Shown here in pieces: positions 7,601 through 48,944 of a stretch of 64,000 nucleotides of DNA. Position 1 is the first letter of the stretch. The number at the start of each line of letters is the position of its first letter. The position numbers and the translations under genes are program-made. The stretch lies in contig CAUYUJ010000126.1 in NCBI GenBank assembly GCA_963575745.1, positions 310,001 to 374,000 of the forward strand, given 5' to 3'. Source of the stretch: Prorocentrum cordatum (taxonomy: Eukaryota). The notes under the pieces were generated by a model. It was not told the origin of the DNA. It did not search any database and saw only the letters and a program-made list of their open reading frames with translations.

Positions 7601-8866
7601 CGTTTTACCTCTCCAGTGCGGCGCGTTTCTACTTGCGTTGGGCTCAAATTCCAGACTCGCTGCATTGTATAACGAGGATTTTGTTGTCAGACACCCGTGC
7701 ATCATTGGTTTACCTTTCAGGGGATCGGGTCCTTACGTTTCGGCTTTCGGAGGCCTCTGGAAGAGGTGGCGGGCCAAAAGGAAGGGTCGCCGCGCCATGC
7801 CCCTCCAGGGGTCCACGGGCGGGCACGCACGGCCGGCCCATGAGAGCCGAGCCCGAATTCCCGCTGCGCCACTAGCGCCGACGCCTTTGTCTTCTCTCTC
7901 TCTCTCTCTCTCCCTTCTCTCTCCCTCTGGAGGGGATGAGAGGAAGTAGGAGGAGGGGGCTTTGGACACCGTACTCAAAAGTACATTTGAGGAACGCGTG
8001 CGGCCACGTAAATGTCCACCGGACAATTCGGCGTGCTGACCACACCAGAGGGCTCATCAATCAGAGCGTGGAGCACGCACGTTCCGCATTGTGAGGGGCG
8101 CGCTCGCATACGACCCCGGCCTGTTCCCATGCGAGCGCCTATCGCACCACGCAAACTCAGGACTTTCAGGATGAGACTTCCAAGCGGTCGTGGATCACCG
8201 AACTCTATGGGTCGCCTCATCCTTAAAGATGGGCTTAGGCGCCCTGAAGCCTGTAGCGTCCTTGGCAGTCCTCCTCTCTGAAGCAGGCTGCCCGCGGCCC
8301 TTCGCTGCTTTCTGCCCGAGGCGAGCGCGGGGAGAACGCCATCTCTACGCCGACGCCTCTCGTGGCCAGGCCCAGCTCTGCGCCCAGGGCCGACCCCCGC
8401 CAGGGAGCCCAAGGGGCCGCGGTCGGCGCATCGCCGGCACCCTCTGGCAGCGGCCCGCAGCCGTGCGCCCGGCCCCTCGGTGTCTGAACCACGCCACGCC
8501 CTAGTCGCCCCGCCAGCTCCTCGCCATGCAGCAATTGGGCTCCTCCTGCTCCTCCTCCTGCTCCTGCTCCTGCTCCTCCTCCTCCTCCTCCTCCTCCTCC
8601 TCCTCCTCCTCCTCCTCCTCCTCCTCCCCGCACCGCCTCCTCCACCTGCTCCTCCTCCTCCTCCTCCTCCTCCTCCTCCTCCTCCTATACAATTACACAA
8701 CATGAATAGTACTCTCCTCTCTCCCCTGGTGACGTCTGGGAAACATTCGGCCTCCCTCCGCGTGCTGGTTTTTGTACCCGCGCAGGATTCCCGGGAGTTT
8801 TGTTTTCGCTTGGATGTTTTTTCAGAATGCTGCTCTCGCTCAAGCGCTGGTCTCCTTTCGGGCTAC

Positions 8867-9378
8867 CGCTCGTTCCGGATCGTGCTCCCACCGCAACGCT
8901 GGCGTCCTTATTTCCAGCGCCATGCCACGGCATGGTTTTCGGTTCTTTCAATTAGGCCCCAAAATCTAAAACATGCACCCCGAAACAATCAGAAGTGATT
9001 TCACATTCGGTGTCGATTCGTTAACTTTTTGGGTCCCAGAAGCCCCCCACTACACTTGGGGCGTCGCCACGCCATGCTATGTCAGGCTACGCGTCCTCCG
9101 AATCGTACTCCCGCTGCAACGTTGGCCTCATTATCGCGCTTCCGCTCGTTCCGAATCGTGCTCCCGCTGCAGCGCTGGCGTTATCATTTCCAGCGAGCGC
9201 CATGCCACGGCATGGTTTTCGGTCCTTCCAACTAGGCCCCAAAATCTAAAAATTGCCCCCCCACCACAGAAACAACCACCGGAAGTGATTACACATTCGG
9301 TGTCGATTCGTTGACTTTTGGCCTGCAGAACACCCCCCCCCGCACTTTGGGGCGTCGCCACGCCATGCTATGTCAGGA
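8867..9378 (+). repeat. Tandem duplication of a ~220-240-bp block
   Basis: ~8867-9088 and ~9143-9378 share cgctcgttccg.atcgtgctccc...ccatgccacggcatggttttcgg...taggccccaaaatctaaa...cacattcggtgtcgattcgtt...gcgtcgccacgccatgctatgtcagg. Confidence 0.85.
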
Positions 9379-17291: not shown

Positions 17292-17593
17292 CATCCTGCT
17301 CGATCCTCCTGCTCCTCCTGCTCCTCCTCCTCCTCCTCCTCCTCCTCCTCCTCCTCCTCCTCCTCCTCCCCCCCTCTTCTCTCTGGTTTTCGCGCTTCCA
17401 CGCTCCTCTTCCTCCTCCTCCAGGCCCCAGGCTGGCGGCCTCTGTCACGCAGGTCGGGCGCGGCCGTCGCACCCCCCCCCCCCCCACCCACCCACCCACC
17501 CATCCGCGCCAGCGTGCATCCTCCTCCTCCTCCCCCTCCTCCTCCTCTTCTCCTCCTCCTCCTCCTCCTCCTCCCCCTCCTCCTCTCCTCCTC
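16340..17593 (+). repeat. Mosaic (CCT)n/(CAT)n/(CAGCAT)n microsatellite
   Basis: Directly visible. It accounts for the first ~320 codons of the 1725-aa track ORF. Confidence 0.95.
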
Positions 17594-20500
17594 CGATCTC
17601 GCCACACTGCTACGTTGAGATCAAGCTGGAGGGCCTCAGGGACGAGCCCTTTGTCTGGGTCGAGGCGCCCCCACGAGCCTTTCCTCTGGCCGACCAGGAG
17701 GCCAAGAGGAAAGCCAGGGAGAAAGCAAAGAGTGCCAAGGTGACCGACCTCACCTCGACCACGGAACCGCCTATGGTACCTGTGCTTGACGAGTGGCAAC
17801 TGGACGCCCCCGTGAACTCAGTCGAGGATGCGGCAGCGATGTGGTTCAAGGCGGCTGAGAAGTACCTGGTGCAGTTGTTCGAGATTCCGTTCTCGGACAG
17901 GAGGCTCTACGTTGGCAGGGAAAAGGGCGTGGTACTCAAGAAGAAGAGGCTGGTGGACTGTGCGAAGGCTATCCTAGAGCGACACGACGAGTCGGACACC
18001 AGAGCTTGGCTGAGTGCCCTCAGGCTATGGGATGCCCTATGTGTGGCATCGTCAGCTCCGTCTGGTTCGAAAGCAGGCAGGCCAGAGCACTCCGCGAGGT
18101 GCGAGAGACAGCTGCTGGCCCTGAAGCTCCCTGAGGCCATCTCGGATTCCCCCTCCCTGCAGGCGAAGGATGTCCAGAAGTGGGTCGCCTTGGCCAAGAG
18201 AGGAGGTCAGTTGTCTGCCTGGTTTCGAACTGTTCTAGCGGAGGAGGTGGATGTGCGCAGACGCAAGGACTCACAGGCCAGGAGTAAGGCCTGGAGAGAG
18301 TTCGGCGACCTCGCAGCTGATGGCTCTGGCAGGCTAGCGCACGCGATTTCCAGGCCCAAGCTGTTGGAGGAGGCGCCCACGCTGGCCAAAGGCAAGCCCC
18401 ATGGTCTGGTGGGAGCTGCTGCGATCACGGCGGTGCTGGAGGAATGGGAAGAGCTGTGGATCTCTGACGACAGGGCCCAGGAGGCAGCGCCGTCTGACTG
18501 GAGTTACCCGTGGAAGCTCGACCAGATCTCGGAGGACCAGATCGTCCAGGTCTGCCGCTCCTTTGGCTTTTCCACTGGTCTAGGCTGGGACAACTTTCAC
18601 ATGAGGTTGGTAAGCTTCCTGGATGGAGTGTTTGTTCGGAGGCTCCAAGAGATTATTTCAAGTTGGGAGCGCAATCCGCACTGTGAACGCATGTGGGTCA
18701 CGATCAATGTATTTCTGCCTAAACCAGGAGGAGGTACACGCCCGATCGGGCTCCTTTGCTTCTGGGCGCGCATTTGGAGCAGATGCAGGAGGCAGTATGT
18801 CAAAGGTTGGGAGGCGTCGGTTGATGCGAAGTTTTTCTGGGGAAAGGATGCCACGACCAGTTGTGACAAAGCGGCGTACGTACACAATATGCTTGCCTGC
18901 TACGCCAGAAGGAAGAGGCTGTCGGCCATAACTGTGTTCTATGACATCCGCAAGTTCTACGAGAATGTCAGTCATCAGCAGCTAAGAGAAGCAGCAGAGC
19001 ACTACAACTTCGACGGCGCCTTGCTGAAGGCGCTCTGCTGCCTGTATCGAGCGCCACGCCGTGCGCGCTGGACAGGAGGCGCGAGCAGAGTCAGTCATCC
19101 GAATGGAACTATCGTGGCTGGCTGCAGTGCGGCAACGGGAGTGGCGAAACTGATGACCTTGTGCCTCCTCAAGCGCCTGGCTGAGGAGACGCCTCCGTGT
19201 CGTGCGTTGAATGTGGTGGACGATTTGACGACGCATACCATCGGAGGCCCAAGGGCGGTTGTTGAGAACACGGTCAAGAGTTTCGAGATTGTCACCTCGG
19301 AGCTGGACTCGAGGAAGTTGCCAATTAATTGGGACAAGACTAGATTCATGATGTCCGATCACTCCCAGCTGCCTGCGTTGGTACAGGATCCCAGGTGGAG
19401 GCTATCGGACGACAAGCTGGTCATCGCCCACCGCGACCTCGGCGGCGACTCGCTGGACGGCAGGGCGAGACGAGTCGGCGCGCAGGCGTCGAGAATTGAG
19501 GCCGCCCGCAGCACTGCAGTTGCCCTACGACAGCTGGGGCAGAGTGAAAAGCATAGTAGAGTTTATCGTGTGGGCGCGCTGGCTAAAGCTTCTTGGGGAT
19601 CCCACATCTTGGGGATCCCGCCGACCACCCTCCATAAACTTAGGGTCCAAGCTGCGAGATCCTGGGGCCCTCTTCTTCCTGGCACTTCCCTGGGCTTCAG
19701 GTTTCTTCCGGCCGCTCGCCTCTGGCTCAGGGACCCGCTTTTGGTGACGGTGACGTCGGCTGTAAAGGAATTCGTCAGCGTTTGGTGGGCCCGCTCGATT
19801 TCTAAACCAGTGTTGGAAGCTTGTGTCCAGGACGCCCTGGCGGTCCAGGGGAGTAGGGCCCCCTGGGGCCAAGTCCGCCAGCCTGTTGCTGCGCTTTTCC
19901 TGCAGCTTGCTCGGATCCGCTGGACTTTCGATGTGTCTCGATTAGCCCTGGTTGACGACCTCAACCGTGTGTGGTCAATTGATCGGTTTTCGCCCAAATT
20001 TTTCACCCTTCTCCTGCGAGGCTCGGTCGTTCGGGCCATTGAGCGGGAGGAGCAGTTGAAACAATTTGATTTCGGGATGTGGAGCGGCCCAGTGTTCTGG
20101 CAGCCCATTCATCAGCTTCTAGGGCGGAAATGTTCGGAGTCGTGGACGAAGTCGCACAAGGCAGCTCTTTCAGCTCTGTGTGCGAATGTGTACTGGTGCC
20201 AGCACAGAGTGTGCGAGCATAGTCCAGAGGCCCCTGACCAATGCCAGCTGTGCAGAGATGGTAGAGGCACGTTGTACCATCGCAGGTTTCAGTGCGTTGC
20301 CTTCGCTCCCTGGCGGCGCGAGAACCTGGATCCCGTGGTTGCTAAGGCGGCTCGTGCGGTTGGCCATCTCCCCACTCCTGCTGGGGAACTTTTTAGCAGA
20401 TGTCTTTTCCCCAACCCTGCGGCCTGGGTGGAGCGACCCCCCCGCGACCCGCAGGACCCGTGCACCAGGCACTTTCAGTGGCCTCAGGACGGCCCCTTGT

Positions 20501-21860
20501 TTATTCCTGAGGGGGCTCATGTGTTCACGGACGGGTCGGGCTTTGAAGGGAAGCTCACAGGACTCGGGACCGCGGGTTGGGCTGTTGTGGTGCTGGACAG
20601 GCAGGGTAGGACCCTCGCTGCCCTTTTTGGTGTCGTGCCGATCGGGGAAGCGCCTGGGCAACAGGCACGCGACGGCGAGGATTTCGCTGTGCTGATGCTC
20701 TCCCGCCGTTCGGTCCTCTCCTCAGGTGTCTCGCTTCATGTGGACTGTGCGGCCACGGTCGGTTGCCTTCGAAACCTCGCGGGGGCAGCTGGTGCGTCGT
20801 CGGCCCGAGCCCACTGGTGGGCTGAGATTGGGGACCGTTTGGAGGGCTTGGCAGTGCATCAGATCCCGTCTCACTCGTCGATGGTTGATGTTAGGGAAGG
20901 CCGCATCACTGAAATGCAGCGTTTCGGGAACTCGGAGGCGGACAGACTCGCCAAGGAAGGAGCTGAGCCATTCCGAATTTCGATTGAGGACCGCCAATTT
21001 GTGACTGGATATGCAGAGCTTGTCCGACGTGTCGGGCTGTACAGTGCCAGGCAGCAGGCTGAGTGTAGGGATTTGGCCCTGAACGATCATCAAGGGTTGG
21101 AATGGCTCGGCTACGTCCTCCTGGATGCGGCCCCTGGCTTCCCCCTTCCTGGTTCGGACCCTGGGGGTGGTGAGCCAAGTGCGCCTAGCGGTGTGCCTCA
21201 GGTTGCGCCTGGTGCGGGGGAAGCCCCTGGCGAGGCCCCTGGTGCTGTTTCTGGTGAGCCGCCTCCCGAGAACCCCCCGACCCCAGGAGCATGGCTCCAG
21301 CTGGGGCACTCCCTTGAGCAGGGGGTGGTATATGAGTCGGATGGCTGCACGTATCACGATACGATGCTGTGTTGCACGGCTTGTGGTGCAATGGCACATT
21401 CCAGCACGAAACGGGGGAATCTTCGGTTGAGGTGTCGTCCTGTTGCGTCTGGGGGACGGGGGTTTTACCTTGACCGATTTCGTGCTGGAAGATATCCTGC
21501 CCATAGGAATCCTAAAGGGCTCACTATGGCGTACACGGGTGCCCCCTCTCTTGAGGTTCGCTCGGAGTGGGGGCCCTTCTTTGAGGCCTGGTCCCAGGGC
21601 CGCGACCGCCCTCCGAGAATAGCTCGGGGTGCCCAGCCCTCGCGCCGCGAGGGTCCCGCTGCCGACCGTGCGCGAGGCCTCGCCTTGCTCGGCCTGACGC
21701 GGGCGGAGGTCGTGGAGCTGGGGGCCGAGGTCGAGGCCAGGCGCTGGAGAGGCGTTCTTCCCGAGGAGGAGGAGGATCTCTTCGGCTGCCTAGGCCCCTC
21801 CTAACTTGTTTGTTTTTGTTGCATGCGAATTGGGTCACTCCCTTCGTGGTCGTGGGCGTC
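17594..21860 (+). mobile_element. Non-LTR (LINE-like) retrotransposon, 5'-truncated (LINE-1 of this window)
   Basis: One uninterrupted reading frame with RT, Zn-finger and RNase H motifs, followed by a ~56-nt 3' UTR. (CCT)n flanks both ends. Confidence 0.9.
17596..21804 (+). CDS. LINE ORF2 polyprotein (5'-truncated): reverse transcriptase, CxxC-H-C zinc finger, RNase H, C-terminal Cys motif
   Basis: RT motifs: FLPKPGGGTRPIGLL (~18712), FYDIRKFYENV (~18937), GTIVAGC (~19105), NVVDD (~19210). Zn finger: CQLC...YHRRFQC (~20242). RNase H: VFTDGS (~20521), GWAVV, EDFAV, HVDC, IPSH, GNSEADRLAKEGA (~20926). C-terminal motif: CCTACG...LRLRC (~21368). Confidence 0.92.
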   Translation: MSPHCYVEIKLEGLRDEPFVWVEAPPRAFPLADQEAKRKAREKAKSAKVTDLTSTTEPPMVPVLDEWQLDAPVNSVEDAAAMWFKAAEKYLVQLFEIPFSDRRLYVGREKGVVLKKKRLVDCAKAILERHDESDTRAWLSALRLWDALCVASSAPSGSKAGRPEHSARCERQLLALKLPEAISDSPSLQAKDVQKWVALAKRGGQLSAWFRTVLAEEVDVRRRKDSQARSKAWREFGDLAADGSGRLAHAISRPKLLEEAPTLAKGKPHGLVGAAAITAVLEEWEELWISDDRAQEAAPSDWSYPWKLDQISEDQIVQVCRSFGFSTGLGWDNFHMRLVSFLDGVFVRRLQEIISSWERNPHCERMWVTINVFLPKPGGGTRPIGLLCFWARIWSRCRRQYVKGWEASVDAKFFWGKDATTSCDKAAYVHNMLACYARRKRLSAITVFYDIRKFYENVSHQQLREAAEHYNFDGALLKALCCLYRAPRRARWTGGASRVSHPNGTIVAGCSAATGVAKLMTLCLLKRLAEETPPCRALNVVDDLTTHTIGGPRAVVENTVKSFEIVTSELDSRKLPINWDKTRFMMSDHSQLPALVQDPRWRLSDDKLVIAHRDLGGDSLDGRARRVGAQASRIEAARSTAVALRQLGQSEKHSRVYRVGALAKASWGSHILGIPPTTLHKLRVQAARSWGPLLPGTSLGFRFLPAARLWLRDPLLVTVTSAVKEFVSVWWARSISKPVLEACVQDALAVQGSRAPWGQVRQPVAALFLQLARIRWTFDVSRLALVDDLNRVWSIDRFSPKFFTLLLRGSVVRAIEREEQLKQFDFGMWSGPVFWQPIHQLLGRKCSESWTKSHKAALSALCANVYWCQHRVCEHSPEAPDQCQLCRDGRGTLYHRRFQCVAFAPWRRENLDPVVAKAARAVGHLPTPAGELFSRCLFPNPAAWVERPPRDPQDPCTRHFQWPQDGPLFIPEGAHVFTDGSGFEGKLTGLGTAGWAVVVLDRQGRTLAALFGVVPIGEAPGQQARDGEDFAVLMLSRRSVLSSGVSLHVDCAATVGCLRNLAGAAGASSARAHWWAEIGDRLEGLAVHQIPSHSSMVDVREGRITEMQRFGNSEADRLAKEGAEPFRISIEDRQFVTGYAELVRRVGLYSARQQAECRDLALNDHQGLEWLGYVLLDAAPGFPLPGSDPGGGEPSAPSGVPQVAPGAGEAPGEAPGAVSGEPPPENPPTPGAWLQLGHSLEQGVVYESDGCTYHDTMLCCTACGAMAHSSTKRGNLRLRCRPVASGGRGFYLDRFRAGRYPAHRNPKGLTMAYTGAPSLEVRSEWGPFFEAWSQGRDRPPRIARGAQPSRREGPAADRARGLALLGLTRAEVVELGAEVEARRWRGVLPEEEEDLFGCLGPS

Positions 21861-22094
21861 CTCCTCTCCTCCTCTCCTCCTCTCCTCCTCTTCTCCTCTT
21901 CTCCTCTTCTCCTCCTCCTCCTCCTCCTCCTCCTCCTCCTCCTCCTCCTCCTCTCCTCCTCTTCCCCCTTCTCCTCCTCGCACGTGCCTGCGCCGCGCGA
22001 GTCCGTCTATCTGGGCCTATCGCCGCGGGAGCTGGAAGCGCGCAGTTGCGGCCAGCGCCCGGGCGCGGGGCTCGGGGAGAAGCTCGAGAGCGGC

Positions 22095-38289: not shown

Positions 38290-39504
38290 TTCTTCTCCTC
38301 CTCCTCCTCCACCTCCTCCGCCTCTTCCTCCTCCTCCTCCTTTTCCTCCTCCTCCTCCTCCTCCTCCTCCTCCTCCTCCTCCTCCTCCTCCCCCTCCTCC
38401 TCCTCGCCCTCCTCGCCCTCCTCGCCCTCCTCGCCCTCCTCGCCGTCCTCCTCCTCCTCCTCCTCCTCCTCCTCCTCCTCCCCCTCCTCACCCTCCTCAT
38501 CCTCCTCCTCCTCCTCCTCCTCCTCTTCTTCGTCTTCTAGTTGTTAGTATTATTATTATGATTATCATTTTTCTGATTATTATCATTATTAGTAATATTA
38601 TTGTTATTAATATTATTAATATTAGTATTATTATTATTATTGTTAGTATTATTATTATTATTATTTGTATTATTTGTATTATTATTATTATGAGTAATAA
38701 TAATAATAGTAGTAGTAGTATCATTGTTATCATTATTATCAGCCTTGTCATTATTATTCGTATTATTAGTACTATTATTATCATTCGTATTATTATCATT
38801 ATTATTATTAGTATTATTATTATTGATACTATTATTAATATTATTGTCATTAGTATTGTCATTAGTAGTATTATTATTATTAGTATTATTATTAGTATTA
38901 TTACTAGTATTATTATTACTAGTATTACCAGTATTATTGGTATTAGTATTCTTATTAATAATAAAAATATGGTATTATCATTGTTATCATTATTATCATT
39001 ATTATTAGTATTATTAGTACTATTGTTATTAGTAGTATTATTATTATTGTTCGTATTATTAGTATTATTATCATTATTTCTATTATTAGTATTATTACTA
39101 TTAGTATTACTATTATTACTAGTAGTATTATTTATATTAATATTGTTGCTACTATTAGTAGCATAGTATTATTATTACTACTACTACTACTATTATGGAT
39201 ATTATTATTATTAATAATATTATTATATTTAATATTATTAGTATTATTATTATCCTCCCCCTCCTCCTCCTCCTCCTCCTCCTCCTCCCCATCCCCTCCT
39301 CCTACCCCTCCTCCTCCTCCTCCTCCTCCTCCTCCTCCTCCTCCTCCTCCTCTTCCCCCCTCCCTCCTCCCCCTCCCCCTCCTCTCCCTCCTCCGCCTCC
39401 TCCTCCTCCCCTCCTCCTCCTCCTCCTCGTCCCCCTCCTCCTCCTTGTCCTCCTCCTCCCTCCTCCTCCTCCTCCCTCCTCCCCTCCTCCTCCTCCTCCT
39501 CCTC

Positions 39505-39535
<31 letters not shown>

Positions 39536-40214
39536 TCCTCCCCCTCCTCCTCCTCCTCCTCTCTCTCCTCCTCCTCCTCCTCCTCCTCCTCCTCCTCCTC
39601 CTCCTTCCTCCTCCTCCTCCTCCTCCTCCTCCTCCTCCTCCTCCTCCTCCTCCTCCTCCTCCTCCTCCTCCTCCTCCTCCTCCTCCTCCTCCTCCTCCTC
39701 CTCCTCCTCCTCCTCCTCCTCCTCCTCCTCCTCCCTCCTCCTCCTCCTCCTCCTCCTCCTCCTCTCCTCCTCCTCCTCCTCCTCCTCCTCCTCCTCCTCC
39801 TCCTCCTCCTCCTCCTCCTCCTCCTCCTCCTCCTCTCCTCCTCCTCCTCCTCCTCCTCCTCCTCTCCTCCTCCCTCCTCCTCCTCCTCCTCTCCTCCTCC
39901 TCCTCCTCCTCCTCCTCCTCCTCCTCCTCCTCCTCTCCTCCTCCTCCTCTCCTCCTCCTCCTCCTCCTCCTCCTCCCCTCCTCTCCTCCTCCTCCTCCTC
40001 CTCCTCGTCCTCTCTCCTCCTCCTCCTCCTCCTCCTCCTCCTCCTCCTCCTCCTCCTCCTCCTCCTCCTCCTCCTCTCCTTCCCCCCCCCCCCCTCGCTC
40101 CTCCCCCCCCCCGCCCCCCCTCCTCCTCCTCCTCCTCCTCCTCCTCCTCCCTCTTCCTCCTCTCCTCCTCCTCCTCCTCCTCCTCCTCCTCCTCCTCCTC
40201 CTCCTCCTCCTCCT
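38290..40214 (+). repeat. Compound microsatellite: (CCT)n, then (TAT/TAG)n, then (CCT)n
   Basis: CCT at 38290-38535, AT-rich TAT at 38540-39253 and CCT at 39254-40214, all directly visible. Confidence 0.95.
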
Positions 40215-40236
40215 TCCGTAGCCATTTTGGCTCAAG
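40215..40236 (+). other. Genomic dinoflagellate spliced-leader sequence (DinoSL, 22 nt) at the 5' end of LINE-3
   Basis: TCCGTAGCCATTTTGGCTCAAG is an exact match to the DinoSL consensus DCCGTAGCCATTTTGGCTCAAG. It is followed by ATG rather than a GT donor or SL-RNA intron, so it is a retro-integrated leader and not an SL RNA gene. Confidence 0.93.
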
Positions 40237-40373
40237 ATGCTCCGTTCCACAGGGGAACAAGTGGATACCGCTAGTCCGCGGCCAGTGCCAGGGCGATTCT
40301 GCCCGACAGTCTTGTTTCCGACCCTTTTGGCCCTGTGGCTGGCCTCGTTGCTCTCCCAAGCAGGCGAGGGACC

Positions 40374-41447
40374 ATGGCGCCTGGGGGCCGCGGCGGTGGC
40401 GGTGAGACCAAGCCCGACTGGTACTGCCTTTTCTGCAAGTACGAGCGTGGGCCCAAGATCGGCATGCCGTGCATCACGTTCGGCACCAAGCAGCTCTGCC
40501 ACTTCTGTGGAGGCGCCAAGGACCGCACCTTCCTGGGCCATGTCCGTGGGGAGGAGGGTCTGCGCCGCGGCCACAGTGGGACCTCGGGGGCTGGTGGTGG
40601 CGCAGGCGCCGGCGCCGCTGGGCAACACCCTGCGATGCAGAGGGAGCTCACCAGGCTGCGTGAGGAGCTCAAGACCCTGCGCGCGGAGGGCAAGAAGGGC
40701 CCCGTGGCGGAGGCGCCCAGTGGTGCCGACGCCGAGGAGGGCGCTGAGGGAGGAGACGAGCAGCGCAAGATCGAACATCTTGATTGCCAGCTACGGGTGC
40801 TGCGAGGCCCCCCCGACCCAGGGAAAGAAATTCTCGACACAATCGAGCAGCTGGCGGCTCAGCGGCAGGTCTTGGCGGAGCAGGTGCGCGCCAAGAAGCC
40901 CGTTGTCGCGCAGCTGCTCACACTCCAGAAGAAGCTCAAGTCCAAGCAGGACGCTATCGGCAGGCAGGATGCGGCGGTGGCCAAGGCGCAGGAGGCAGTC
41001 ACCGCGGCGCAGGCTGCGTTGGAGGCCGAGCGTGAGAAGGGCACGAAGCTGCGTGCTGATGCTGCCGAGCTGGAGGAGCAGGCGCGGGCGCTCAGCGCCC
41101 AGGTGCCCAAGCCCCCCGATGCGAAGGAGTCCGCGGGGGCCCCAGGTGGCGCGCCGAACCTCGATGGCTTGGCTGACCTCCTCAGGGAGCTTGGGGCGTC
41201 GGGCGAAGTCACGGAGAAGTTCTTGGCCCACCCCAAGATCGCGGCGTCTTTCTGCCCTAGGGCTGCGACGCGCGCGCGGCCTGCTGGCGATGGGGATCCT
41301 GGCGGCGTGGCGGCGACGCCGCCTGACGCCAAGAGACTGCGCACGGCGGCGGACAAGGCGCCCCTCGAGCAGCTGCGGGACAGCATCGCGGCCGCTGGAG
41401 TCCAGGCCCCCACCGAGGAAGCGGAGATCAGGGCCAAGGCGCACTAG
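40374..41447 (+). CDS. LINE ORF1 (gag-like): N-terminal W-x-CxxC...CxxC zinc finger (RanBP2-like) plus coiled coil, 357 aa
   Basis: Start context ACCATGG. Zn motif DWYCLFC...CHFCG. Heptad-rich segments ELTRLREELKTLR and LLTLQKKLKSKQDAI...LEEQARAL. GC3-rich codon usage. It lies upstream of the APE-RT frame. Confidence 0.8.
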   Translation: MAPGGRGGGGETKPDWYCLFCKYERGPKIGMPCITFGTKQLCHFCGGAKDRTFLGHVRGEEGLRRGHSGTSGAGGGAGAGAAGQHPAMQRELTRLREELKTLRAEGKKGPVAEAPSGADAEEGAEGGDEQRKIEHLDCQLRVLRGPPDPGKEILDTIEQLAAQRQVLAEQVRAKKPVVAQLLTLQKKLKSKQDAIGRQDAAVAKAQEAVTAAQAALEAEREKGTKLRADAAELEEQARALSAQVPKPPDAKESAGAPGGAPNLDGLADLLRELGASGEVTEKFLAHPKIAASFCPRAATRARPAGDGDPGGVAATPPDAKRLRTAADKAPLEQLRDSIAAAGVQAPTEEAEIRAKAH

Positions 41448-41535
41448 ATCGCTGCGGCTGCCAGTGCTTGGGCCTACCGTGCCTACTAGGCGCCAGGTGC
41501 CGAGGCTTTGGTTGTTCTGGAGTACCATACTCAGT

Positions 41536-43615
41536 ATGATGATGGGAGTATCTGGTAATACTAAGTACGGTGGCAGTGCGGACACTGTCAAAGGGGTGCT
41601 GACCACGGTCAATGTTTCATGTGCGAGAGGGCTCACTGAGTACCTCGCGGAGGACCCGAAGGGCGACATCTTCGGCGTGCAGGAGCACCGCGTCTTGGGT
41701 GACAAGCTGTGCTCCCTGCAGGACCAGGTGAAGGACCTGGGTTTCCATGGTCTGTGGGCCCCAGGAGTGGCCGCAGGTGGAGGCCCGCTGGATGTCTCGA
41801 GCGGCGTCGCGCTCCTCGCGCGCTACGTCATCCCTGTGACGGCGCCGCCCTTCACGCCCTCCCACGTCCTGGAGGTGGCGCGTGTGTTGGCGGGCCACGT
41901 GCACTGGGGCGTGAAGGGTGGCATCATCGCTGTGGTGGTCTACTTGAGGCACTCAGTAGGCATGGGCGAGGATAACTCGGACACGGTCCACGAGCTGCAG
42001 CGCTACCTCAGGGTGCTCAACGCGCGTGGGCTGGACTGGGTCGCCATGGGCGACTGGAACATGGAGCTCGAGGGGCTGAAAGGCGCCATGGCTTGAGCAG
42101 GTGCGGGGCGTCCCGATCGTCCCGTCTGGGCCGACCTGCTGGCAGACGGTGGAGGGCCCCCGCCTGGACTACCTCATCGTGGCGCCGAACCTGGACCCGA
42201 GGCTAGGCGAGGCATGGGTCGCGACGGATGCGGCTCTGCACCCGCGCGTCCCCGCGCACGTGAACCTGGCCACGGTCGACCGCGAGGCCCTTGTCATGGT
42301 CGCCGTCGAGCCGAGGGGGTTCACTGCGGTGCCGCCAGTGGGCGAAGCGCCTTTTCCTCATGACCGAGGGTGGCTGGCGGCGCTGCAGCAGGTCCCCGCG
42401 GCGGAGGAGCCTGGCCTCCTGGCGCAGGCGTGGGGCGCGGTCGTCGGCATGGCGGAGGCCGAGCTCTGCAGCCGCTGGTACCTCGCGGGGGTGGAGAGGC
42501 GGCAGCACACTGGCAGGGCGGGCGAGCCTGTCTTCAAGCTTGTCCAGCCGACGTGGCAGCCGCCGAGACGGAGGAAGCTGTGCGACCCGATAGTCAGCGC
42601 CCACATGGTGGCGGCAAGGTGGGCTCGGCATCTGGATGCTGCGCGCGCGCGATTGGTCAAGTTGCTCGGGTGCGACCTGGATGACCGCATCGAGAGGGCC
42701 GTGGACCTCATCCTCGAGACCCACCGCTACTACGGCAACGTGGCGAAGTCGCAGCGCGTGCTCAGCCAGCTCTCGGATGGCGTCGCGCAGTGGCTCTTGG
42801 GTGGCGCGGGCCAGATGAGCAAGAGGATGTGGACCGCCCAGGTCGAGAAGATCGTGGCGGAGGCCGAGCGGCTCACCAGGCGCTACAATGGCGAGCGGGA
42901 GAAGGAGTGGCGCGCGTGGGCGGCCAAGAGCCTCGCAGGCGGGGCGGGCGCTGCGCACCGCTTCACGAGGCTACCTCCTGAGGCTGAGGTCCGTGGAGCC
43001 ACCACGCGGGCTAGCCCGCGCCAGCTGGCGGACCGCGAGCTCGATGGATGGAGGGGCGCGTGGGCCGTCCACGAGCAGGGCGCCCTGGAGAAGCCCCCTG
43101 ACTTTGACGACTGGGCCGAACTCCCGCGGATGAGCGCCGGCCACCTCAGACGCGCGGCGCTTCGTTTCAAGGAGCGCACCGCGGTGGGCCAGGCGGGCAT
43201 TGCACCACGGGCCCTCTGGCACCTCAGCGACATAGGCCTTTACGTGCTGTCGGCGCTCTTCAGCCAGCGCGAGAAGTTGGGGGCATGGCCGACCGACAGG
43301 GTGCACACAGCGCTGGTGCGCCTGCCCAAGGCGAGTGGAGGGTGCAGGCTGATTGCCCCTGTGAACTCTTTCCTCCGTCTGTGGGCGAAGGCGCGCTCGA
43401 CGATTTCGCGGGCCTGGCTCGACCAGGCAGAAGTGCCCAATCTCTGGGGCGCAGGTGGAGCTGGCAGGACCTCGACGGCGGCGGCGTTCCACCGCAACCT
43501 GACGGCGGAGATCATGAACATCAACGGAGGACACAGCGTCACTGTGCTCCTAGATGCATGGAAGGCGTTCGACTGCTTGATTGGAGGCAGACTGCTGGAC
43601 GAGGCTCGAGCGATG
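41536..43615 (+). pseudogene. LINE ORF2 N-terminal part: apurinic-type endonuclease and RT domains 0-3, with a frameshift at ~42085-42100
   Basis: APE motifs: LTTVNV, IFGVQEH, SGVALL, VVVYL, MGDWN and, after the shift, RLDYLIV. RT motifs: LVRLPKASGGCRLIA, RLWAKAR, LLDAWKAFD. Confidence 0.87.
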
Positions 43616-44183
43616 GGGCCAGTGATTTCGCTCTTAGCCACATCGCCTCGTTTTTTTTCGAGATTCTCCTGAGGCAGGGGATCCAGCGTTGGCAAATGCG
43701 CCAGATTGCCGCTCACCACGATGCCGCCACGCCTCTTTGGCCGCGAGGCCTGCGAGCTTGCGCGGGCGGGAAGGGGGCGGCGGTGACTGGGGCGGGGAGG
43801 GTCGGAGCTCTGCGCAGTCTGTGGTCTGGCTCTCTCTGGCCGAAAGCTAAGTTGTATAGCAAAGGAATGTGTGATGATCAGAAGTGTCGAGCGTGCCCGC
43901 ACGAGGCTGAGACGCTTGGCCATTGTTTCGTTGAGTGCCCAGCGTTGACGCAGCGCTTGTTAGACGATGAGGAAGATTGTGGTCTTGATCCCAAATTGGC
44001 CGCAGCTCGCGACACCATGTTGGAGCACGGGCCGATTGGGGAAGGCCGCCAGGATGTTGATTATGTTGCCCTCTCGGTCGGGATCCCCAGGTGGCCCAAG
44101 GTTGAAGTGCCGCAGCCTCCTGAGTCGCCTCCTTGTTTCTTTTGGGGAGATTGGGAGTCGGATCCCGAACAATGGAGTGTTTT
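43616..44183 (+). pseudogene. LINE ORF2 post-RT region with CxxC-H-C zinc finger, cut at the start of RNase H
   Basis: SPRFF.EILLRQGIQR resembles LINE-1 SPKFFTLLLRGSVVR. Zn finger CRAC...ETLGHCFVECPAL. The frame ends at WSVF, where LINE-1 has HVFTDGS. Confidence 0.75.
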
Positions 44184-47100
44184 TTCTCCACATCCTGAGT
44201 GGGGTTCTTGTTTTCCCAGAACACCCTCTCCTTCCCACCCACCTCCCGCTCCATCTTCCATACAGCACAATATTATTCCGACCGCACACACCATACCATA
44301 CCATAGTTCCTACCACACATACCATACCATACCTCCCACCTCTCCAGGGAGGCCCCGCCTGAGCGAGGAGGGTATCCGCAAACCATACTATTTACATGGT
44401 TTCGTGCCCCTCCCACCTCTCCACGGAGGCCCCGCCTGAGCGAGGAGGGTATCGGAATACCATACTATTTACATGGTTTCGTGCCCCTCCCACACCTCCA
44501 GGGAGGCCCCGCCTGAGCGAGGAGGGTATCCGGAAACCATACTATTTACATGGTTTCGTGCCCCTCCCACCCCTCCAGGGAGGCCCCGCCTGAGCGAGGA
44601 GGGTATCGGAAACCATACTATTTACATGGTTTCGTGCCCCTCCCACCTCTCCAGGGAGGCCCCGCCTGAGCGAGGAGGGTATCCGAAACCATACTATTTA
44701 CATGGTTTCGTGCCCCTCCCACACCTCCAGGGAGGCCCCGCCTGAGCGAGGAGGGTATCGGAATACCATACTATTTACATGGTTTCGTGCCCCTCCCACC
44801 CCTCCAGGGAGGCCCCGCCTGAGCGAGGAGGGTATCGGAATACCATATTATTTACATGGTTTCGTGCCCCTCCCACCCCTCCAGGGAGGCCCCGCCTGAG
44901 CGAGGAGGGTATCGGAAACCATACTATTTACATGGTTTCGTGCCCCTCCCACCCTCCAGGGAGGCCCCGCCTGAACGAGGAGGGTATCGGAATACCATAC
45001 TATTTACATGGTTTCGTGCCCCTCCCACCCCTCCAGGGAGGCCCCGCCTGAGCGAGGAGGGTATCCGCAAACCATACTATTTACATGGTTGCGTGCCCCT
45101 CCCACCCCTCCAAGGAGGCCCCGCCTGAGCGAGGAAGGTATCGGAACACCATACTATTTACATGGTTTCGTGTCCCCCCTCCACTCCTCCAGGGAGGCCG
45201 CGCTTGAACGAGGAGGGTCGCGGAAAGTATTACTCTTCGCCAGGTTTCGTAGCCCTCCCCCCTTCCAGCGGGGCCCCGCCAAAGCGAGGAGGGCATCAAG
45301 AAAATGTGTCCCACGAGACCGTTAATCTCTTTATGTGGGGAACTCCGTTCGCATAATTTTCCCCACGTCCTGAGTGGGGTTCTTGTTTTCCCATAACACC
45401 CTCTCCTTCCCACCCACCTCCCGCTCCATCTTCCATACAGCACAATATTATTCCTACCACACACACCATACCATATCATAGTTCCTACCACACATACCAT
45501 ACCATACCATACCATACCATACCACCCACACATTCCTACCACACATTTCTACCACACATTCCAGGGAGGCCCCGCCTGAACGAGGATGGTATCGGAATAC
45601 CATACTATTTACCTGGTGTCGTGCCCCTCACACCCTTCCCATATCACACCAATGCCACACCGTACCATGCCATACCATACCTCCAGTACCATACCATACC
45701 ATATCATACCATACCGTACCATACCATACCTACCATATATTTACATGGTTTCGTGCCCCTCCCACCCCTCCAGGGAGGCCCCGCCTGAGCGAGGAGGGTA
45801 TCGGAATACCATACTATTTACATGGTTTCGTGCCCCTCCCAACCCTCCAGGGAGGCCCCGCCTGAGCGAGGAGGGTATCGGAATACCATACTATTTACAT
45901 GGTTTCGTGCCCCTCCCACCCCTCCAGGGAGGCCCCGCCTGAGCGAGGAGGGTATCGGAATACCATACTATTTACATGGTTTCGTGCCCCTCCCACCCCT
46001 CCAGGGAGGCCCCGCCTGAGCGAGGAAGGTATCGGAATACCATACTATTTACATGGTTTCGTGCCCCTCCCACCCCTCCAGGGAGGCCCCGCCTGAGCGA
46101 GGAGGGTATCGGAAAACCATAATATTTACATGGTTTCGTGCCCCTCCCACCCCTCCAGGGAGGCCCCGCCTGAGCGAGGAGGGTATCGGAATACCATACT
46201 ATTTACATGGTTTCGTGCCCCTCCCACCCCTCCAGGGAGGCCCCGCCTGAGCGAGGAGGGTATCGGAATACCATACTATTTACATGGTTTCGTGCCCCTC
46301 CCACCCCTCCAGGGAGGCCCCGCCTGAGCGAGGAGGGTATCGGAATACCATACTATTTGCATGGTTTCGTGCCCCTCCCACCCCTCCAGGGAGGCCCCGC
46401 CTGAGCGAGGAGGGTATCGGAATACCATAATATTTACATGGTTTCGTGCCCCTCCCACCCCTGCAGGGAGGCCCCGCCTGAGCGAGGAGGGTATCGGAAT
46501 ACCATACTATTTACATGGTTTCGTGCCCCTCCCACCCCTCCAGGGAGGCCCCGCCTGAGCGAGGAGGGTATCGGAATACCATACTATTTACTTGGTTTCG
46601 TGCCCCTCCCACCCCTCCAGGGAGGCCCCGCCTGAGCGAGGAGGGTATCGGAATACCATACTATTTACATGGTTTCGTGCCCCTCCCACCCCTCCAGGGA
46701 GGCCCCGCCTGAGCGAGTAGGGTATCGGAATACCATACTATTTACATGGTTTCGTGCCCCTCCCACCCCTCCAGGGAGGCCCCGCCTGAGCGAGGAGGGT
46801 ATCGGAATACCATACTATTTACATGGTTTCGTGCCCCTCCCACCCCTCCAGGGAGGCCCCGCCTGAGCGAGGAGGGTATCGGAATACCATACTATTTACA
46901 TGGTTTCGTGCCCCTCCCACCCCTCCAGGGAGGCCCCGCCTGAGCGAGGAGGGTATCGGAATACCATACTATTTACATGGTTTCGTGCCCCTCCCACCCC
47001 TCCAGGGAGGCCCCGCCTGAGCGAGGAGGGTATCGGAATACCATACTATTTACATGGTTTCGTGCCCCTCCCACCCCTCCAGGGAGGCCCCGCCTGAGCG

Positions 47101-48944
47101 AGGAGGGTATCGGAATACCATACTATTTACATGGTTTCGTGCCCCTTCCCACCCCTCCAGGGAGGCCCCGCCTGAGCGAGGAGGGTATCGGAATACCATA
47201 CTATTTACATGGTTTCGTGCCCCTCCCACCCCTCCAGGGAGGCCCCGCCTGAGCGAGGAGGGTATCGGAATACCATACTGTTTACATGGTTTCGTGCCCC
47301 TCCCACCCCTCCAGGAGGCGTGCCTGAGCGAGGAGGGTATCGGAATACCATACTATTTACATGGTTTCGTGCCCCTCCCACCCCTCCAGGGAGGCCCCGC
47401 CTGAGCGAGGAGGGTATCGTAACACCATACTATTTACATGGTTTCGTGCCCCTCCCACCCCTCCAAGGAGGCCCCGCCTGAGCGAGGAGGGTATCAAGAA
47501 AATGGGCCCCACGAAACCGTTAATCTCTTTATGTGGGGAACTCCGTTAGCATAATTATTATTAGTATTATTATGAGTAATATTAATATTATCACTGATAG
47601 TCTTATTATTGTGATTATTCCCCACATCCTGAGTGGGGTTCTTGTTTTCCCAGAACACCCTCTCCTTCCCACCCACCTCCCGCTGCATCTTCCATACAGC
47701 ACAATATTATTCCTACCACACACACCATACCATACCATAGTTCCTACCACACATACCATACCATACCATACCATACCATACCATACCACACCATACGTAC
47801 CATACCGTACCATACCATACCATGGCGTACCATAGCATACCATACCATATCACACCAATGCCGCACCGTACCATACCATACCATACCATACCTCCAGTAC
47901 CATACCATACCATATCATACCATACCTACCATACCATTCCATACCACTCCATACCGAAAACCATACTACTTACATGGTTTCGTGCCCCTCCCACCCCTCC
48001 AGGGAGGCCCCGCCTGAGCGAGGAGGGTATCGGAAAACCATACTATTTATATGGTTTCGTGCCCCTCCCACCCCTCCAGGGAGGCCCCGCCTGAGCGAGG
48101 AGGGTATCGGAATACCATACTCTTTACATGGTTCGTGGTTTCGTGCCCCTCCCACCCTCCAGGGAGGCCCCGCCTGAGCGAGGAGGGTATCGGAATACCA
48201 TACTATTTACATGGTTTCGTGCCCCTCCCACCCCTCCAGGGAGGCCCCGCCTGAGCGAGGAGGGTATCGGAATACCATACTATTTACATGGTTTCGTGCC
48301 CCTCCCACCCCTCCAGGGAGGCCCCGCCTGAGCGAGGAGGGTATCGGAATACCATACTATTTACATGGTTTCGTGCCCCTCCCACCCCTCCAGGGAGGCC
48401 CCGCCTGAGCGAGGAGGGTATCGGAATACCATACTATTTACATGGTTTCGTGCCCCTCCCACCCCTGCAGGGAGGCCCCGCCTGAGCGAGGAGGGTATCG
48501 GAATACCATACTATTTACATGGTTTCGTGCCCCTCCCACCCCTCCAGGGAGGCCCCGCCTGAGCGAGGAGGGTATCGGAACACCATACTATGTACATGGT
48601 TTCGTGCCCCTCCCACCCCTCCAGGGAGGCCCCGCCTGAGCGAGGAGGGTATCGGAATACCATACTATTTACATGGTTTCGTGCCCCTCCCACCCCTCCA
48701 GGGAGGCCCCGCCTGAGCGAGGAGGGTATCGGAATACCATACTATTTACATGGTTTCGTGCCCCTCCCACACCTCCAGGGAGGCCCCGCCAAAGCGAGGA
48801 GGGTATCGGAATACCATACTATTTACATGGTTTCGTGCCCCTCCCACACCTCCAGGGAGGCCCCGCCAAAGCGAGGAGGGCATCAAGAAAATGGGTCCCA
48901 CGAAACCGTTAATCTCTTTATGTGGGGAACTCCGTTAGCATAAT
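44184..48944 (+). mobile_element. Three tandem copies of a composite non-autonomous element: sub-TIR, (ACCAT)n, 77-bp tandem array, sub-TIR
   Basis: Units span ~44184-45357, 45359-47555 and 47618-48944. Each starts tt(c/t)ccac(a/g)tcctgagtggggttcttgttttccc and ends catcaagaaaatg.g.cccacga.accgttaatctctttatgtggggaactccgtt.gcataat. Confidence 0.7.
44343..48880 (+). repeat. 77-bp satellite, ~45-50 highly similar copies in three blocks
   Basis: Unit: ccagggaggccccgcctgagcgaggagggtatcggaataccatactatttacatggtttcgtgcccctcccacccct. The ORF track repeats with a 77-nt offset. Confidence 0.97.

What the first reader, a model, noticed from the sequence alone, without database searches (positions are those of the whole stretch)
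40215..44183. LINE retrotransposon whose 5' end is a perfect dinoflagellate spliced leader: a candidate trans-spliced, promoter-less retroelement
Seen: the (CCT)n tract stops at 40214. An exact DinoSL (TCCGTAGCCATTTTGGCTCAAG, 40215-40236) follows, then a short UTR, a zinc-finger/coiled-coil ORF1 and an APE-RT ORF2. Established: DinoSL is added to dinoflagellate mRNAs by trans-splicing, and relict SLs mark retroposed host genes. Most LINEs define their 5' end with an internal promoter or a self-cleaving ribozyme. SLACS, CZAR and NeSL elements insert into SL RNA genes, which is a different arrangement from carrying the leader. Inference: this element's RNA was trans-spliced, fully reverse transcribed and integrated. 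The genomic SL ends in AG, so it could act as the acceptor in the next round, letting the element be cut from any read-through transcript and regenerate the same capped 5' end without a promoter.
Basis: partly seen in the sequence, partly recalled or inferred. Interest (0 to 1): 0.9.

Follow-up and report, generated by a model that had tools for sequence, protein, structure and literature searches.

The report
Dinoflagellate LINE copy capped by spliced leader
A broken copy of a jumping gene (LINE) in a dinoflagellate genome starts exactly with the 22-letter leader that these algae splice onto all their messenger RNAs, which shows it was copied back into DNA from a fully processed messenger, and two unrelated public contigs show the same arrangement.

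Summary
An exact 22-nt DinoSL lies at 40215-40236, directly after a 960-bp (TCC)n tract. It is followed by a 137-nt UTR, an ORF1 (zinc-knuckle-like CxxC pairs plus a 95-residue helix) and an APE-type LINE ORF2.

It has a frameshift near 42080. About 290-330 codons holding the RT catalytic core are deleted near 43640. It is also cut off at about 44175-44183, before the RNase H region and stop codon of its relatives.

The SL is not part of an SL RNA gene. No GT intron follows, the flanks are repeats, and the endonuclease is APE-like, so a SLACS/CZAR/NeSL-type arrangement is rejected.

A scan of misbinned MAG contigs for the SL gave two independent LINEs that begin with the SL. One is uninterrupted (8.9 kb; RanBP zinc-finger ORF1; APE-RT-RNase H) and sits inside an (AG)n microsatellite. 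So SL-capped LINEs recur.

Best reading: retrotransposition of a mature, trans-spliced LINE mRNA, copied to its 5' end.

Two things are untested. I could not show that this family depends on the SL as a promoter-less cycle. I could not show that other copies share the junction, because no genome or RNA data were available. I found no paper describing SL-capped LINEs.

The parts
39253..40214 (.). (TCC)n microsatellite, the 5' flank of the element. It is preceded by (TTA)n at 38544-39253.
   Evidence: TRF; sequence
40215..40236 (+). [quoted passage not shown]
   Evidence: exact match, the only copy in the window, 0 of 100 shuffles matched
40237..40373 (+). 5' UTR of 137 nt. It starts with an upstream ATG at 40237 that opens an R/S/P-rich frame unlikely to code. 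No Rfam family and no unusual fold.
   Evidence: fold z-score 0.22
40374..41447 (+). ORF1, 357 aa: N-terminal CxxC...CxxC followed by long helices (coiled-coil-like). No sequence relatives found.
41536..42093 (+). ORF2 start and APE endonuclease domain (frame 1). The frame is lost at about 42080-42093.
   Evidence: Exo_endo_phos, E 5.6e-05; tblastn of P0001, P0002, P0151; one base fewer at 42079 in 4 contigs of run X1
42080..43669 (+). ORF2 continued in frame 2: APE end, linker, and the N-terminal part of the reverse transcriptase up to the D..KAFD motif
   Evidence: (1245 hits at E<=1e-3)
43618..43675 (+). Internal deletion breakpoint. About 290-330 codons of relatives (most of RVT_1 and what follows) are missing here.
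   Evidence: P0001 998->1285, P0004 608->876, P0151 878->1212
43657..44154 (+). ORF2 C-terminal piece in frame 1, with a zf-RVT-like CCHC at about 43819-43947. No stop codon before the element ends.
   Evidence: zf-RVT, E 1.1e-04
44172..44183 (.). 3' breakpoint where LINE sequence gives way to satellite. The RNase H region, stop codon and 3' UTR seen in relatives are absent.
   Evidence: homology to 45357 and 47611 starts at 44177-44182; loose ends 'before' at 44180-44184 in X1, X2, X3
44177..48884 (.). Higher-order satellite forming the 3' flank: 157-bp head segments at 44177, 45357 and 47611, and a 77-bp tandem array at 44332-48884

Best explanation
The stretch is a dead, rearranged copy of an APE-type non-LTR retrotransposon (LINE) of a dinoflagellate.

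I infer that its parent RNA was a mature messenger that had received the 22-nt DinoSL by trans-splicing, as dinoflagellate nuclear mRNAs do. The element's reverse transcriptase copied that RNA to its very 5' end, and the cDNA was integrated at a (TCC)n microsatellite. The leader therefore became the first 22 bases of the DNA copy. This is the same process that leaves SL relics in front of retroposed host genes, here acting on the retroelement's own mRNA.

The copy also carries a frameshift, lacks the RT core, and was cut at its 3' side by the neighbouring satellite; when each of these defects arose is not known.

Shown: the SL, its orientation and position, the LINE domains, the defects, the repeat flanks, and two independent LINEs with the same 5' end.

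Inferred: the trans-splicing itself, target-primed reverse transcription, and the order of the later damage.
For: 1. An exact 22/22 SL lies in the sense orientation, 137 nt upstream of the ORF1 start.

2. Only the exon is present. No SL intron follows and no SL-gene context surrounds it. Real SL genes sampled continue with GTAC (4 contigs).

3. LINE identity is supported by APE, the RT N-terminal part and a zf-RVT-like motif, by 1245 homologues at E<=1e-3, and by P0151, which has APE, RVT_1 and RNase H and is 31% identical over 96% of the RT fragment.

4. There is independent recurrence.
- L141 (a 9096-bp contig) reads: (AGAGAGAC)n/(GA)n 1-116; SL 117-137; ORF1 123-1340 (Zn_ribbon_RanBP, E 1.6e-07); a 2536-codon open frame with Exo_endo_phos (5e-09), RVT_1 (5.4e-11) and RNase_H (1.3e-05)...GGGTAAAAAA; then (AG)n 9005-9074.
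- L137 reads: SL, a 286-codon ORF1, then ORF2 with APE (E 7.1e-08).
- These are 2 of the 11 SL-relic contigs that had at least 1 kb downstream in the genome contigs sample.

5. In all 3 LINEs the SL lies 93-137 nt before the ORF1 ATG, which is a normal 5' UTR length.

6. The family has many copies in run X1: 958 contigs laid, 134 of them at 99% identity or more.

7. There is no Rfam ribozyme and no unusual fold at the 5' end.
Against: - No transcript evidence was available. One search lists only DNA runs.
- The junction was seen only once for this family. cannot tell whether the 4 X1 contigs that start matching at 40216 with other upstream sequence are further copies of the element or other SL relics.
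- Loose ends 'behind' 40285 and 40316 leave room for a different 5' history in other copies.
- The second LINE in the same window (about 17596-21858) has no SL. It also lacks an APE domain, so it is probably truncated at its 5' end and says little.
- A preprint (10.1101/783902, passages read) reports no overlap between the functions enriched in DinoSL-relic genes and those enriched in RT genes in two Symbiodinium genomes.
- The natural 3' end and any target-site duplication of this copy are lost, so target-primed insertion cannot be checked here.
Confidence: 0.8

Rival explanations
1. Family strategy. The LINE has no promoter of its own. It is transcribed as part of read-through or polycistronic RNA and cut out by SL trans-splicing. 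The DNA-encoded SL, whose last two bases are AG, serves as the acceptor in the next round, so each generation regains the same capped 5' end.
For: - Three unrelated LINEs begin with a single, complete SL and carry no 15-nt relic behind it. Re-use of the terminal AG would give exactly this.
- One of them (L141) has uninterrupted ORFs, so SL-capped copies can be potentially active.
- In the window the SL lies behind 960 bp of polypyrimidine (TCC)n, a good acceptor context.
Against: - There is no RNA evidence.
- Relics in recycled host mRNAs are reported as CCATTTTGGCTCAAG (PMC12014239, passage; an example is L132). I read that form as use of the internal AG, which would build tandems that none of the three LINEs shows.
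- L141's upstream flank is purine-rich (GA)n, not a polypyrimidine tract.
- A single SL is equally expected if each copy is a first-generation product of an SL-less master.
- n = 3.
Confidence: 0.25
2. The DNA-encoded SL works as a carried-along promoter or leader. Once copied into DNA, the SL (with its TTTT/TTTG motif) drives or positions transcription, or gives the RNA a host-like leader without fresh trans-splicing. It would then act as the element's internal 5' control region.
For: - Song et al. propose that the TTT(T/G) motif of SL relics acts as a promoter for retrogenes. They note that few retrogenes carry multiple SLs, as this idea predicts (PMC5585692 abstract and passages; PMC6050394 passages).
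- All three LINE copies have a single SL.
- In giant-virus bins many genes carry a hard-wired SL behind a conserved AT-rich box, which suggests that an encoded leader may be useful without retroposition.
Against: - No promoter assay exists for any SL relic in the passages I read.
- The viral cases have their own upstream box, which the LINEs lack.
- Nothing in this window bears on transcription.
Confidence: 0.15
3. Chimera by template switching. The reverse transcriptase jumped from a 5'-truncated LINE RNA onto the 5' part of an SL-capped host mRNA. On this view the SL and the first 50-80 nt (40237 to about 40285 or 40316) are not LINE sequence.
For: - Contigs in X2, X3 and X1 match up to 40285/40286 or 40316/40318 and then go on with other sequence.
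- The SL is followed at once by an ATG and a hydrophobic stretch in frame 1.
Against: - ORF1 is complete, and its reading frame is open from 40275.
- The same SL-UTR-ORF1 layout occurs in two other LINE families.
- The loose ends can equally be diverged subfamilies falling below the 85% alignment threshold.
- The frame-1 'protein' is R/S/P-rich and does not look coding.
Confidence: 0.05
4. SL-gene-specific element (SLACS/CZAR/NeSL type). On this view the SL is the left half of a spliced-leader RNA gene into which the element inserted.
For: Only the adjacency of a LINE and an SL sequence.
Against: - The whole 22-nt exon is present and ends exactly at the element.
- The upstream flank is (TCC)n, not an SL gene promoter.
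- No GTAC intron appears at the 3' side. The 3' flank unit recurs twice in the window with no SL before it.
- L141 is flanked by (GA)n/(AG)n on both sides.
- The endonuclease is APE-like.
Confidence: 0.01

Closest known systems
DinoSL relics of retroposed host genes ('mRNA recycling'; Slamovits & Keeling 2008, recalled and cited in papers I read; Song et al. 2017, PMC5585692; PMC12014239)
   Same: A DNA-encoded spliced leader lies 50-150 nt upstream of a start codon. It was left by reverse transcription of a trans-spliced mRNA. It has the same 22-nt sequence and the same orientation.
   Different: Here the cargo is the retroelement's own mRNA (ORF1 plus APE-RT ORF2), not a host gene. Song et al. 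noted the GO term 'RNA-dependent DNA replication' among relic-bearing genes but read those as retrogenes. None of the passages I read describes the SL as the 5' end of a LINE.
SLACS, CZAR and NeSL-1 (non-LTR elements specific for spliced-leader RNA genes; properties recalled, not tested against a paper here)
   Same: A non-LTR retrotransposon lies next to spliced-leader sequence.
   Different: Those elements insert inside SL RNA genes and use a restriction-like endonuclease. This element carries only the exon at its own 5' end, sits in microsatellite or satellite DNA, and has an APE-type endonuclease.
L1Tc/ingi Pr77 promoter with HDV-like ribozyme, and the R2 5' ribozyme (PMC1874656, PMC3185411, PMC3383444: listing abstracts only)
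   Same: They solve the same problem: giving a LINE RNA a defined 5' end that is carried in every copy.
   Different: They use an internal promoter and a self-cleaving ribozyme, and their transcripts are unspliced. Here the 5' end would be made by the host's trans-splicing machinery. No Rfam ribozyme match was found.
SymbioLINE elements of Symbiodinium (de Mendoza et al. 2018, PMC5890265, passages read)
   Same: They are dinoflagellate LINEs with an ORF1 and an APE-RT ORF2, and they lack poly-A tails.
   Different: They are described as having conserved 5' UTRs. The main text has no occurrence of 'spliced leader' or 'DinoSL' and one of 'trans-splic', in a general remark. Their ORF1 is a DNMT, whereas here it is a zinc-knuckle plus coiled coil. 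I could not test relatedness to this family.

Membership tests
APE-type non-LTR retrotransposon (LINE) | Apurinic-like endonuclease domain at the N-terminus of ORF2 | tested here: met
   Exo_endo_phos, E 5.6e-05, 23.4 bits (cut-off 24.5) at 41557-42093. tblastn to the APE regions of P0002 and P0151. Both relatives carry PF03372.
APE-type non-LTR retrotransposon (LINE) | Reverse transcriptase domain with its catalytic core | tested here: inconclusive
   Only the N-terminal RT part is present. It gave no Pfam hit, but 1245 homologues and alignment to P0151 up to residue 878 of its RVT_1 at 781-1028. The core is deleted in this copy.
APE-type non-LTR retrotransposon (LINE) | No long terminal repeats; ORF1 upstream of ORF2 | tested here: met
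   A self-BLAST of 40215-44400 against the window finds no flanking direct repeats other than the 3' satellite. ORF1 at 40374-41447 precedes ORF2, which starts at 41536.
APE-type non-LTR retrotransposon (LINE) | Target-site duplication and a natural 3' end | tested here: not met
   The 3' end is truncated at about 44175-44183, before the RNase H region and stop codon of relatives. No duplication can be read. This reflects later damage to this copy. L141 has matching (GA)n/(AG)n flanks.
DinoSL relic of a retroposed trans-spliced mRNA | Match to DCCGTAGCCATTTTGGCTCAAG, in sense orientation, within the usual UTR distance of a start codon, without an SL intron | tested here: met
   22/22 identity, + strand, 137 nt before the ORF1 ATG, followed by ATGCTCC and not GT.
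DinoSL relic of a retroposed trans-spliced mRNA | A source transcript that carries the SL at this junction | not testable with these tools
   No RNA run is listed and no genome is held.
SL RNA gene | Exon followed by a GT intron | tested here: not met
   The window has ...CTCAAG|ATGCTCC. The sampled SL genes have ...CTCAAG|GTAC (L126/L140, L127/L128, L133, L139).
SLACS/CZAR/NeSL site-specific elements | Insertion inside an SL gene, so that SL gene halves flank the element | tested here: not met
   The flanks are (TCC)n and a satellite whose unit recurs without an SL.
SLACS/CZAR/NeSL site-specific elements | Restriction-enzyme-like endonuclease C-terminal to the RT | tested here: inconclusive
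   An APE domain is present instead. However, the C-terminal part of this copy is missing, and no REL-endonuclease model was searched for specifically.

The most novel reading that the evidence does not exclude
Dinoflagellate LINEs of several families routinely use the host's spliced-leader trans-splicing to make and cap their 5' end. They carry the leader in every full-length DNA copy, where it serves as acceptor or promoter for the next round, so they need no promoter of their own. The same repeat-seeking LINE machinery is the long-sought reverse transcriptase behind the mass retroposition of SL-capped host mRNAs in dinoflagellates.
Probability: 0.25. Interest if true: 0.85.

Novelty: new variant of a known kind. 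Interest (0 to 1): 0.6.

Why it matters
**The 5' end problem.** A LINE must recreate its own 5' end in every generation. The known ways are internal promoters and 5' ribozymes. A LINE whose 5' end is made by host trans-splicing would be a third way, and it would fit an organism in which nuclear mRNAs are reported to be SL-capped.

**The source of retroposition.** Which reverse transcriptase drives the very large-scale mRNA retroposition in dinoflagellates is an open question. A 2018 review leans towards Ty1/copia LTR elements (PMC6050394, passage). LINE copies that begin with the SL show that non-LTR machinery does copy SL-capped RNA to its end and integrate it, so LINEs become concrete candidates.

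**A testable question.** With any assembled dinoflagellate genome one can tabulate LINE 5' junctions and relic numbers, and compare the insertion sites of LINEs and retrogenes.

**Limits.** The locus itself is a dead copy. The underlying biology, SL relics arising from retroposed mRNA, is already established.

Tried and rejected
**Source genome.** None is held, so the decisive table of 5' junctions could not be made.

**Earlier findings of this scan.** Nothing by place, words or sequence.

**Sequencing runs.** No RNA holder is listed; there are 3 DNA holders with shares 0.27, 0.11 and 0.07. The contig lay-out showed a multi-copy family and fixed the 3' boundary. At the SL it was ambiguous. Loose ends 'behind' 40236 (12 contigs in X1, 8 in X2) are other sequences following an SL. 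The 4 X1 contigs with other sequence 'before' 40216 could be copies of the element or unrelated relics. 180 loose-end rows were not shown. X4 laid nothing.

**ORF1.** No relatives in metagenome contigs (430 pattern matches, 0 confirmed). None among the 8000 candidates of 196-625 residues scored in the protein collection; longer and shorter proteins were not searched. ORF1 of L141 is not detectably similar (E 0.63).

**Related LINE loci in metagenomes.** My own degenerate pattern for VRLPK..GG.RLI found 1 stretch (L120), which has no LINE match.

**SL scan of IMG/VR.** 119 stretches and 134 unique SL sites. None of the 134 had a match to the RT/APE queries downstream. These are mostly AT-rich giant-virus bins, not nuclear DNA.

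**The five MAGs holding SL contigs.** 0 of 5 matched this element's RT fragment.

**Clade assignment.** No Repbase is available. PDB sequence searches gave nothing for P0151 and only RNase H1 for L141. The clade stays unassigned.

**Rfam and folding.** No family at E<=1 in 39800-44600. The 5' UTR fold has a z-score of 0.22.

**Microsatellite targeting.** 5 of 16 SL relics (the window plus 15 relic contigs with readable upstream sequence) directly follow a microsatellite. But 17% of the window is short-period repeat, giving a binomial p of about 0.12. This is a lead only.

**Literature.** The searches and the passages read gave no description of a LINE beginning with a DinoSL. Subscription journals and supplements were not searched.

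Full report
**1. The observation**

The + strand reads ...(CCT)n-T|TCCGTAGCCATTTTGGCTCAAG|ATGCTCCG..., with the 22-nt DinoSL at 40215-40236. The 21-mer without its first, variable base occurs once in the 64-kb window at up to 3 mismatches, and none of 100 shuffles gave a match. Relaxing to 6 substitutions adds only a 6-mismatch hit on the other strand at 37018. TRF places (TCC)n at 39253-40214, preceded by (TTA)n at 38544-39253. A 77-bp satellite runs from 44332 to 48884.

**2. Anatomy of the element**

ORF1 (40374-41447, 357 aa) starts 137 nt after the SL.
- It has a CxxC...CxxC pair near the N-terminus.
- A single-sequence AlphaFold2 model (mean pLDDT 62) shows helices at 86-106 and 125-144, and a 95-residue helix at 149-243 with pLDDT above 90. 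This is the look of a coiled coil.
- It has no Pfam family.
- It has no relatives in the metagenome contigs or among 8000 scored candidates of similar length.

The ATG that directly follows the SL (40237) opens a long frame whose product is R/S/P-rich. I treat it as non-coding.

ORF2 starts at 41536, 88 nt after the ORF1 stop.
- Its APE domain is recognised weakly by Pfam (E 5.6e-05) and clearly by tblastn with relatives.
- The frame shifts at about 42080-42093. In run X1, 4 contigs of other copies lack one base at 42079.
- The next 530 codons (42080-43669) match 1245 proteins at E<=1e-3 in the representative library, 15 of them at E<=1e-30.
- The best full-length relative, P0151 (1752 aa; 31% identity over 96% of the fragment), has Exo_endo_phos at 201-402, RVT_1 at 781-1028 and a weak RNase H at 1375-1522.
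- One further relative is named by its source as a Prorocentrum cordatum protein.

Mapping relatives back on the window shows two further defects.
- P0151 residues 879-1211, P0001 residues 999-1284 and P0004 residues 609-875 have no counterpart between about 43618-43636 and 43657-43675. Most of the RT catalytic domain is therefore deleted.
- Homology to P0151 ends at its residue 1367 (window 44154). The frame then runs on into the flank without a stop codon. The RNase H region, the stop codon and the 3' UTR are absent.

The LINE sequence gives way to satellite at 44172-44183.
- The 157 bp from 44177 recur at 45357 and 47611.
- Contigs from three runs begin matching at 44180-44184 with other sequence before them.
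- Summed contig depth (which is not a copy number) jumps from 119 to 7842 in the last bin in X1.

So 44183 is a breakpoint, not a natural 3' end. The copy is 5'-complete but dead.

**3. What the SL is not**

It is not an SL RNA gene and not a SLACS/CZAR/NeSL-type insertion.
- Only the exon is present.
- What follows is ATGCTCC. In the SL genes I happened to sample, the exon continues with GTAC (L126/L140, L127/L128, L133, L139).
- The upstream flank is a microsatellite.
- The 3' flank unit occurs twice more in the window with AT-rich sequence, not an SL, before it.
- The endonuclease is APE-like.

It is not a ribozyme-defined end as far as Rfam can tell: no family at E<=1 in 39800-44600. The 5' UTR folds no better than shuffles (z 0.22).

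**4. Does it recur?**

The decisive test is the 5' junctions of other copies in the same genome. I could not run it, because no genome is held.

Laying public contigs on the stretch showed the family has many copies in one organism. In X1, 958 contigs were laid: 134 at 99% identity or more, 296 at 95-99%, 370 at 90-95% and 158 below 90%. At the SL itself the result was ambiguous.
- 12 X1 contigs and 8 X2 contigs match up to 40236 and then differ. These are other things that follow an SL.
- 4 X1 contigs start matching at 40216 with unrelated upstream sequence.
- A few contigs leave the element at 40285/40286 or 40316/40318.
- 180 further loose-end rows were not shown.

I therefore looked for SL-LINE junctions elsewhere. 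A scan of the GTDB genome contigs for the exact 21-mer gave 20 stretches on 18 contigs, evidently dinoflagellate DNA misbinned into bacterial MAGs.
- 4 contigs are SL genes.
- 14 contigs carry relics in front of other sequence, and 11 of these have at least 1 kb downstream.
- Two of those 11 are LINE 5' ends.
- Of the other 9, L121, L122 and L129 were also scanned with Pfam and showed no retroelement domain. L124, L125, L130, L131, L135 and L136 were screened only by tblastn with RT/APE queries, without a hit.

L141 is the whole 9096-bp contig behind L134. It reads as follows:
- (AGAGAGAC)n/(GA)n at 1-116;
- SL at 117-137;
- ORF1 at 123-1340 with a RanBP-type zinc finger (E 1.6e-07);
- an uninterrupted 2536-codon frame with Exo_endo_phos (5e-09), RVT_1 (5.4e-11) and RNase_H (1.3e-05);
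- ...GGGTAAAAAA;
- (AG)n at 9005-9074.

This is a complete LINE with open reading frames, inserted in an (AG)n microsatellite and beginning with the SL.

L137 (2541 bp, 43% GC) reads: SL, a 286-codon ORF1, then ORF2 with APE (E 7.1e-08), up to the contig end.

The three LINEs are not close relatives.
- The ORF1s of the window and L141 are not detectably similar (E 0.63).
- The window's RT fragment finds nothing in the five MAGs searched, G001 (which holds L141) among them; the MAG that holds L137 was not searched.

In all three LINEs the SL lies 93-137 nt before the ORF1 ATG. SL-capped LINEs are thus a recurrent arrangement, not an oddity of this locus.

**5. Mechanism**

The best-supported account is the ordinary dinoflagellate 'mRNA recycling' route applied to the retroelement's own messenger. 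The LINE RNA was trans-spliced. Its reverse transcriptase copied it to the 5' end. The cDNA was integrated. I put this at 0.8.

What is shown is the structure. Trans-splicing and target-primed insertion are inferred.

It is compatible with the single, relic-free SL in 3 of 3 LINEs. It is not supported beyond that.
- A passage in PMC12014239 gives the relics in recycled host mRNAs as CCATTTTGGCTCAAG. L132 shows two of them. I read that form as use of the internal AG of CCGTAG, which would create tandems.
- A single SL is equally expected for first-generation copies of an SL-less master.
- It is also expected under the published idea that the relic's TTT(T/G) motif acts as a promoter (PMC5585692, PMC6050394).

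A template-switch chimera with a host mRNA 5' end is unlikely. ORF1 is complete and the same layout recurs in three families.

**6. Context in the window**

A second LINE-like element lies at about 17596-21858 (+).
- Its RT frame is open and carries RVT_1 (E 9.8e-11).
- It is only 23% identical to the first element's RT fragment.
- It has no APE domain and no SL, so it is probably truncated at its 5' end.
- It sits inside (TCC)n, with that repeat on both sides: 17519-17594 and 21859-21979.

L141 sits in (AG)n and element 1 lies behind (TCC)n. Three non-LINE relics also directly follow microsatellites: L121, L124 and L136. Together this hints that LINEs and retrogenes land in simple repeats. 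However, 17% of the window is short-period repeat, and 5 of 16 is not significant (p about 0.12). I report it as a lead.

**7. Known or new**

SL relics as marks of retroposition are textbook for dinoflagellates.

Song et al. 2017 found 'RNA-dependent DNA replication' enriched among relic-bearing genes. SL-fronted RT genes have therefore been counted before, but as retrogenes. [quoted passage not shown] De Mendoza et al. 2018 describe SymbioLINEs with conserved 5' UTRs and no poly-A. Their main text has no occurrence of 'spliced leader' or 'DinoSL' and one of 'trans-splic', in a general remark.

My four literature searches and the passages I read turned up no description of a LINE whose 5' end is the SL. 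Subscription papers and supplements were not covered.

I rate the finding a new variant of a known kind. It would be of real interest to transposon and dinoflagellate genome specialists. It is tempered by the fact that it follows naturally from known biology and that this copy is dead.

Noticed in passing
window 17596-21858 (+), flanks 17519-17594 and 21859-21979: A second, distantly related LINE-like element. Its RT frame is open (RVT_1, E 9.8e-11) and it has a 57-nt 3' UTR. It has no APE domain, no SL and no poly-A. It lies inside a (TCC)n microsatellite, with the repeat on both sides, and is probably truncated at its 5' end.
   Followed up: partly
L001-L119 (IMG/VR), e.g. L020, L031, L054, L056, L066, L073 and L029, L039, L053, L070, L071: In AT-rich giant-virus MAG bins the exact DinoSL is encoded in the DNA in front of many genes, on both strands. 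It lies directly behind near-identical AT-rich stretches of about 30 nt, in two recurrent forms. Some sites have tandem SL-plus-spacer repeats (L024). This looks like hard-wired host-leader mimicry behind a viral promoter. A literature search listed no paper on it by title or abstract.
   Followed up: no
window 44177-48884, with heads at 44177, 45357 and 47611: A higher-order satellite made of a 157-bp head segment, (CCATA)n-like runs and a 77-bp tandem array. In run X1 the summed depth of the contigs laid on the 157-bp head (not a copy number) is roughly 70 times that on the LINE.
   Followed up: partly
L121, L124, L136, L134/L141 and window 40214/40215: SL relics directly following microsatellites (GT-rich, (TCA)n, (GACA)n, (GA)n, (TCC)n): 5 of 16 relics with readable upstream sequence. 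Not significant against the 17% repeat content of the window (p about 0.12).
   Followed up: partly
L122 (contig of 5.3 Mb) and L129 (contig of 209 kb): Exact DinoSL relics with eukaryote-like microsatellites and ORFs lie inside very long contigs filed as bacterial MAGs. These are likely chimeric assemblies or contamination.
   Followed up: no
L132:42-62 (-): An SL followed by two CCATTTTGGCTCAAG relics, the classical signature of repeated mRNA recycling. I read that relic form as use of the internal AG as acceptor.
   Followed up: no
window 40237: An ATG directly follows the SL and opens a 619-codon frame that overlaps ORF1 and joins the APE frame. Its product is R/S/P-rich and looks non-coding, but it would act as an upstream start codon on the mRNA.
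   Followed up: partly
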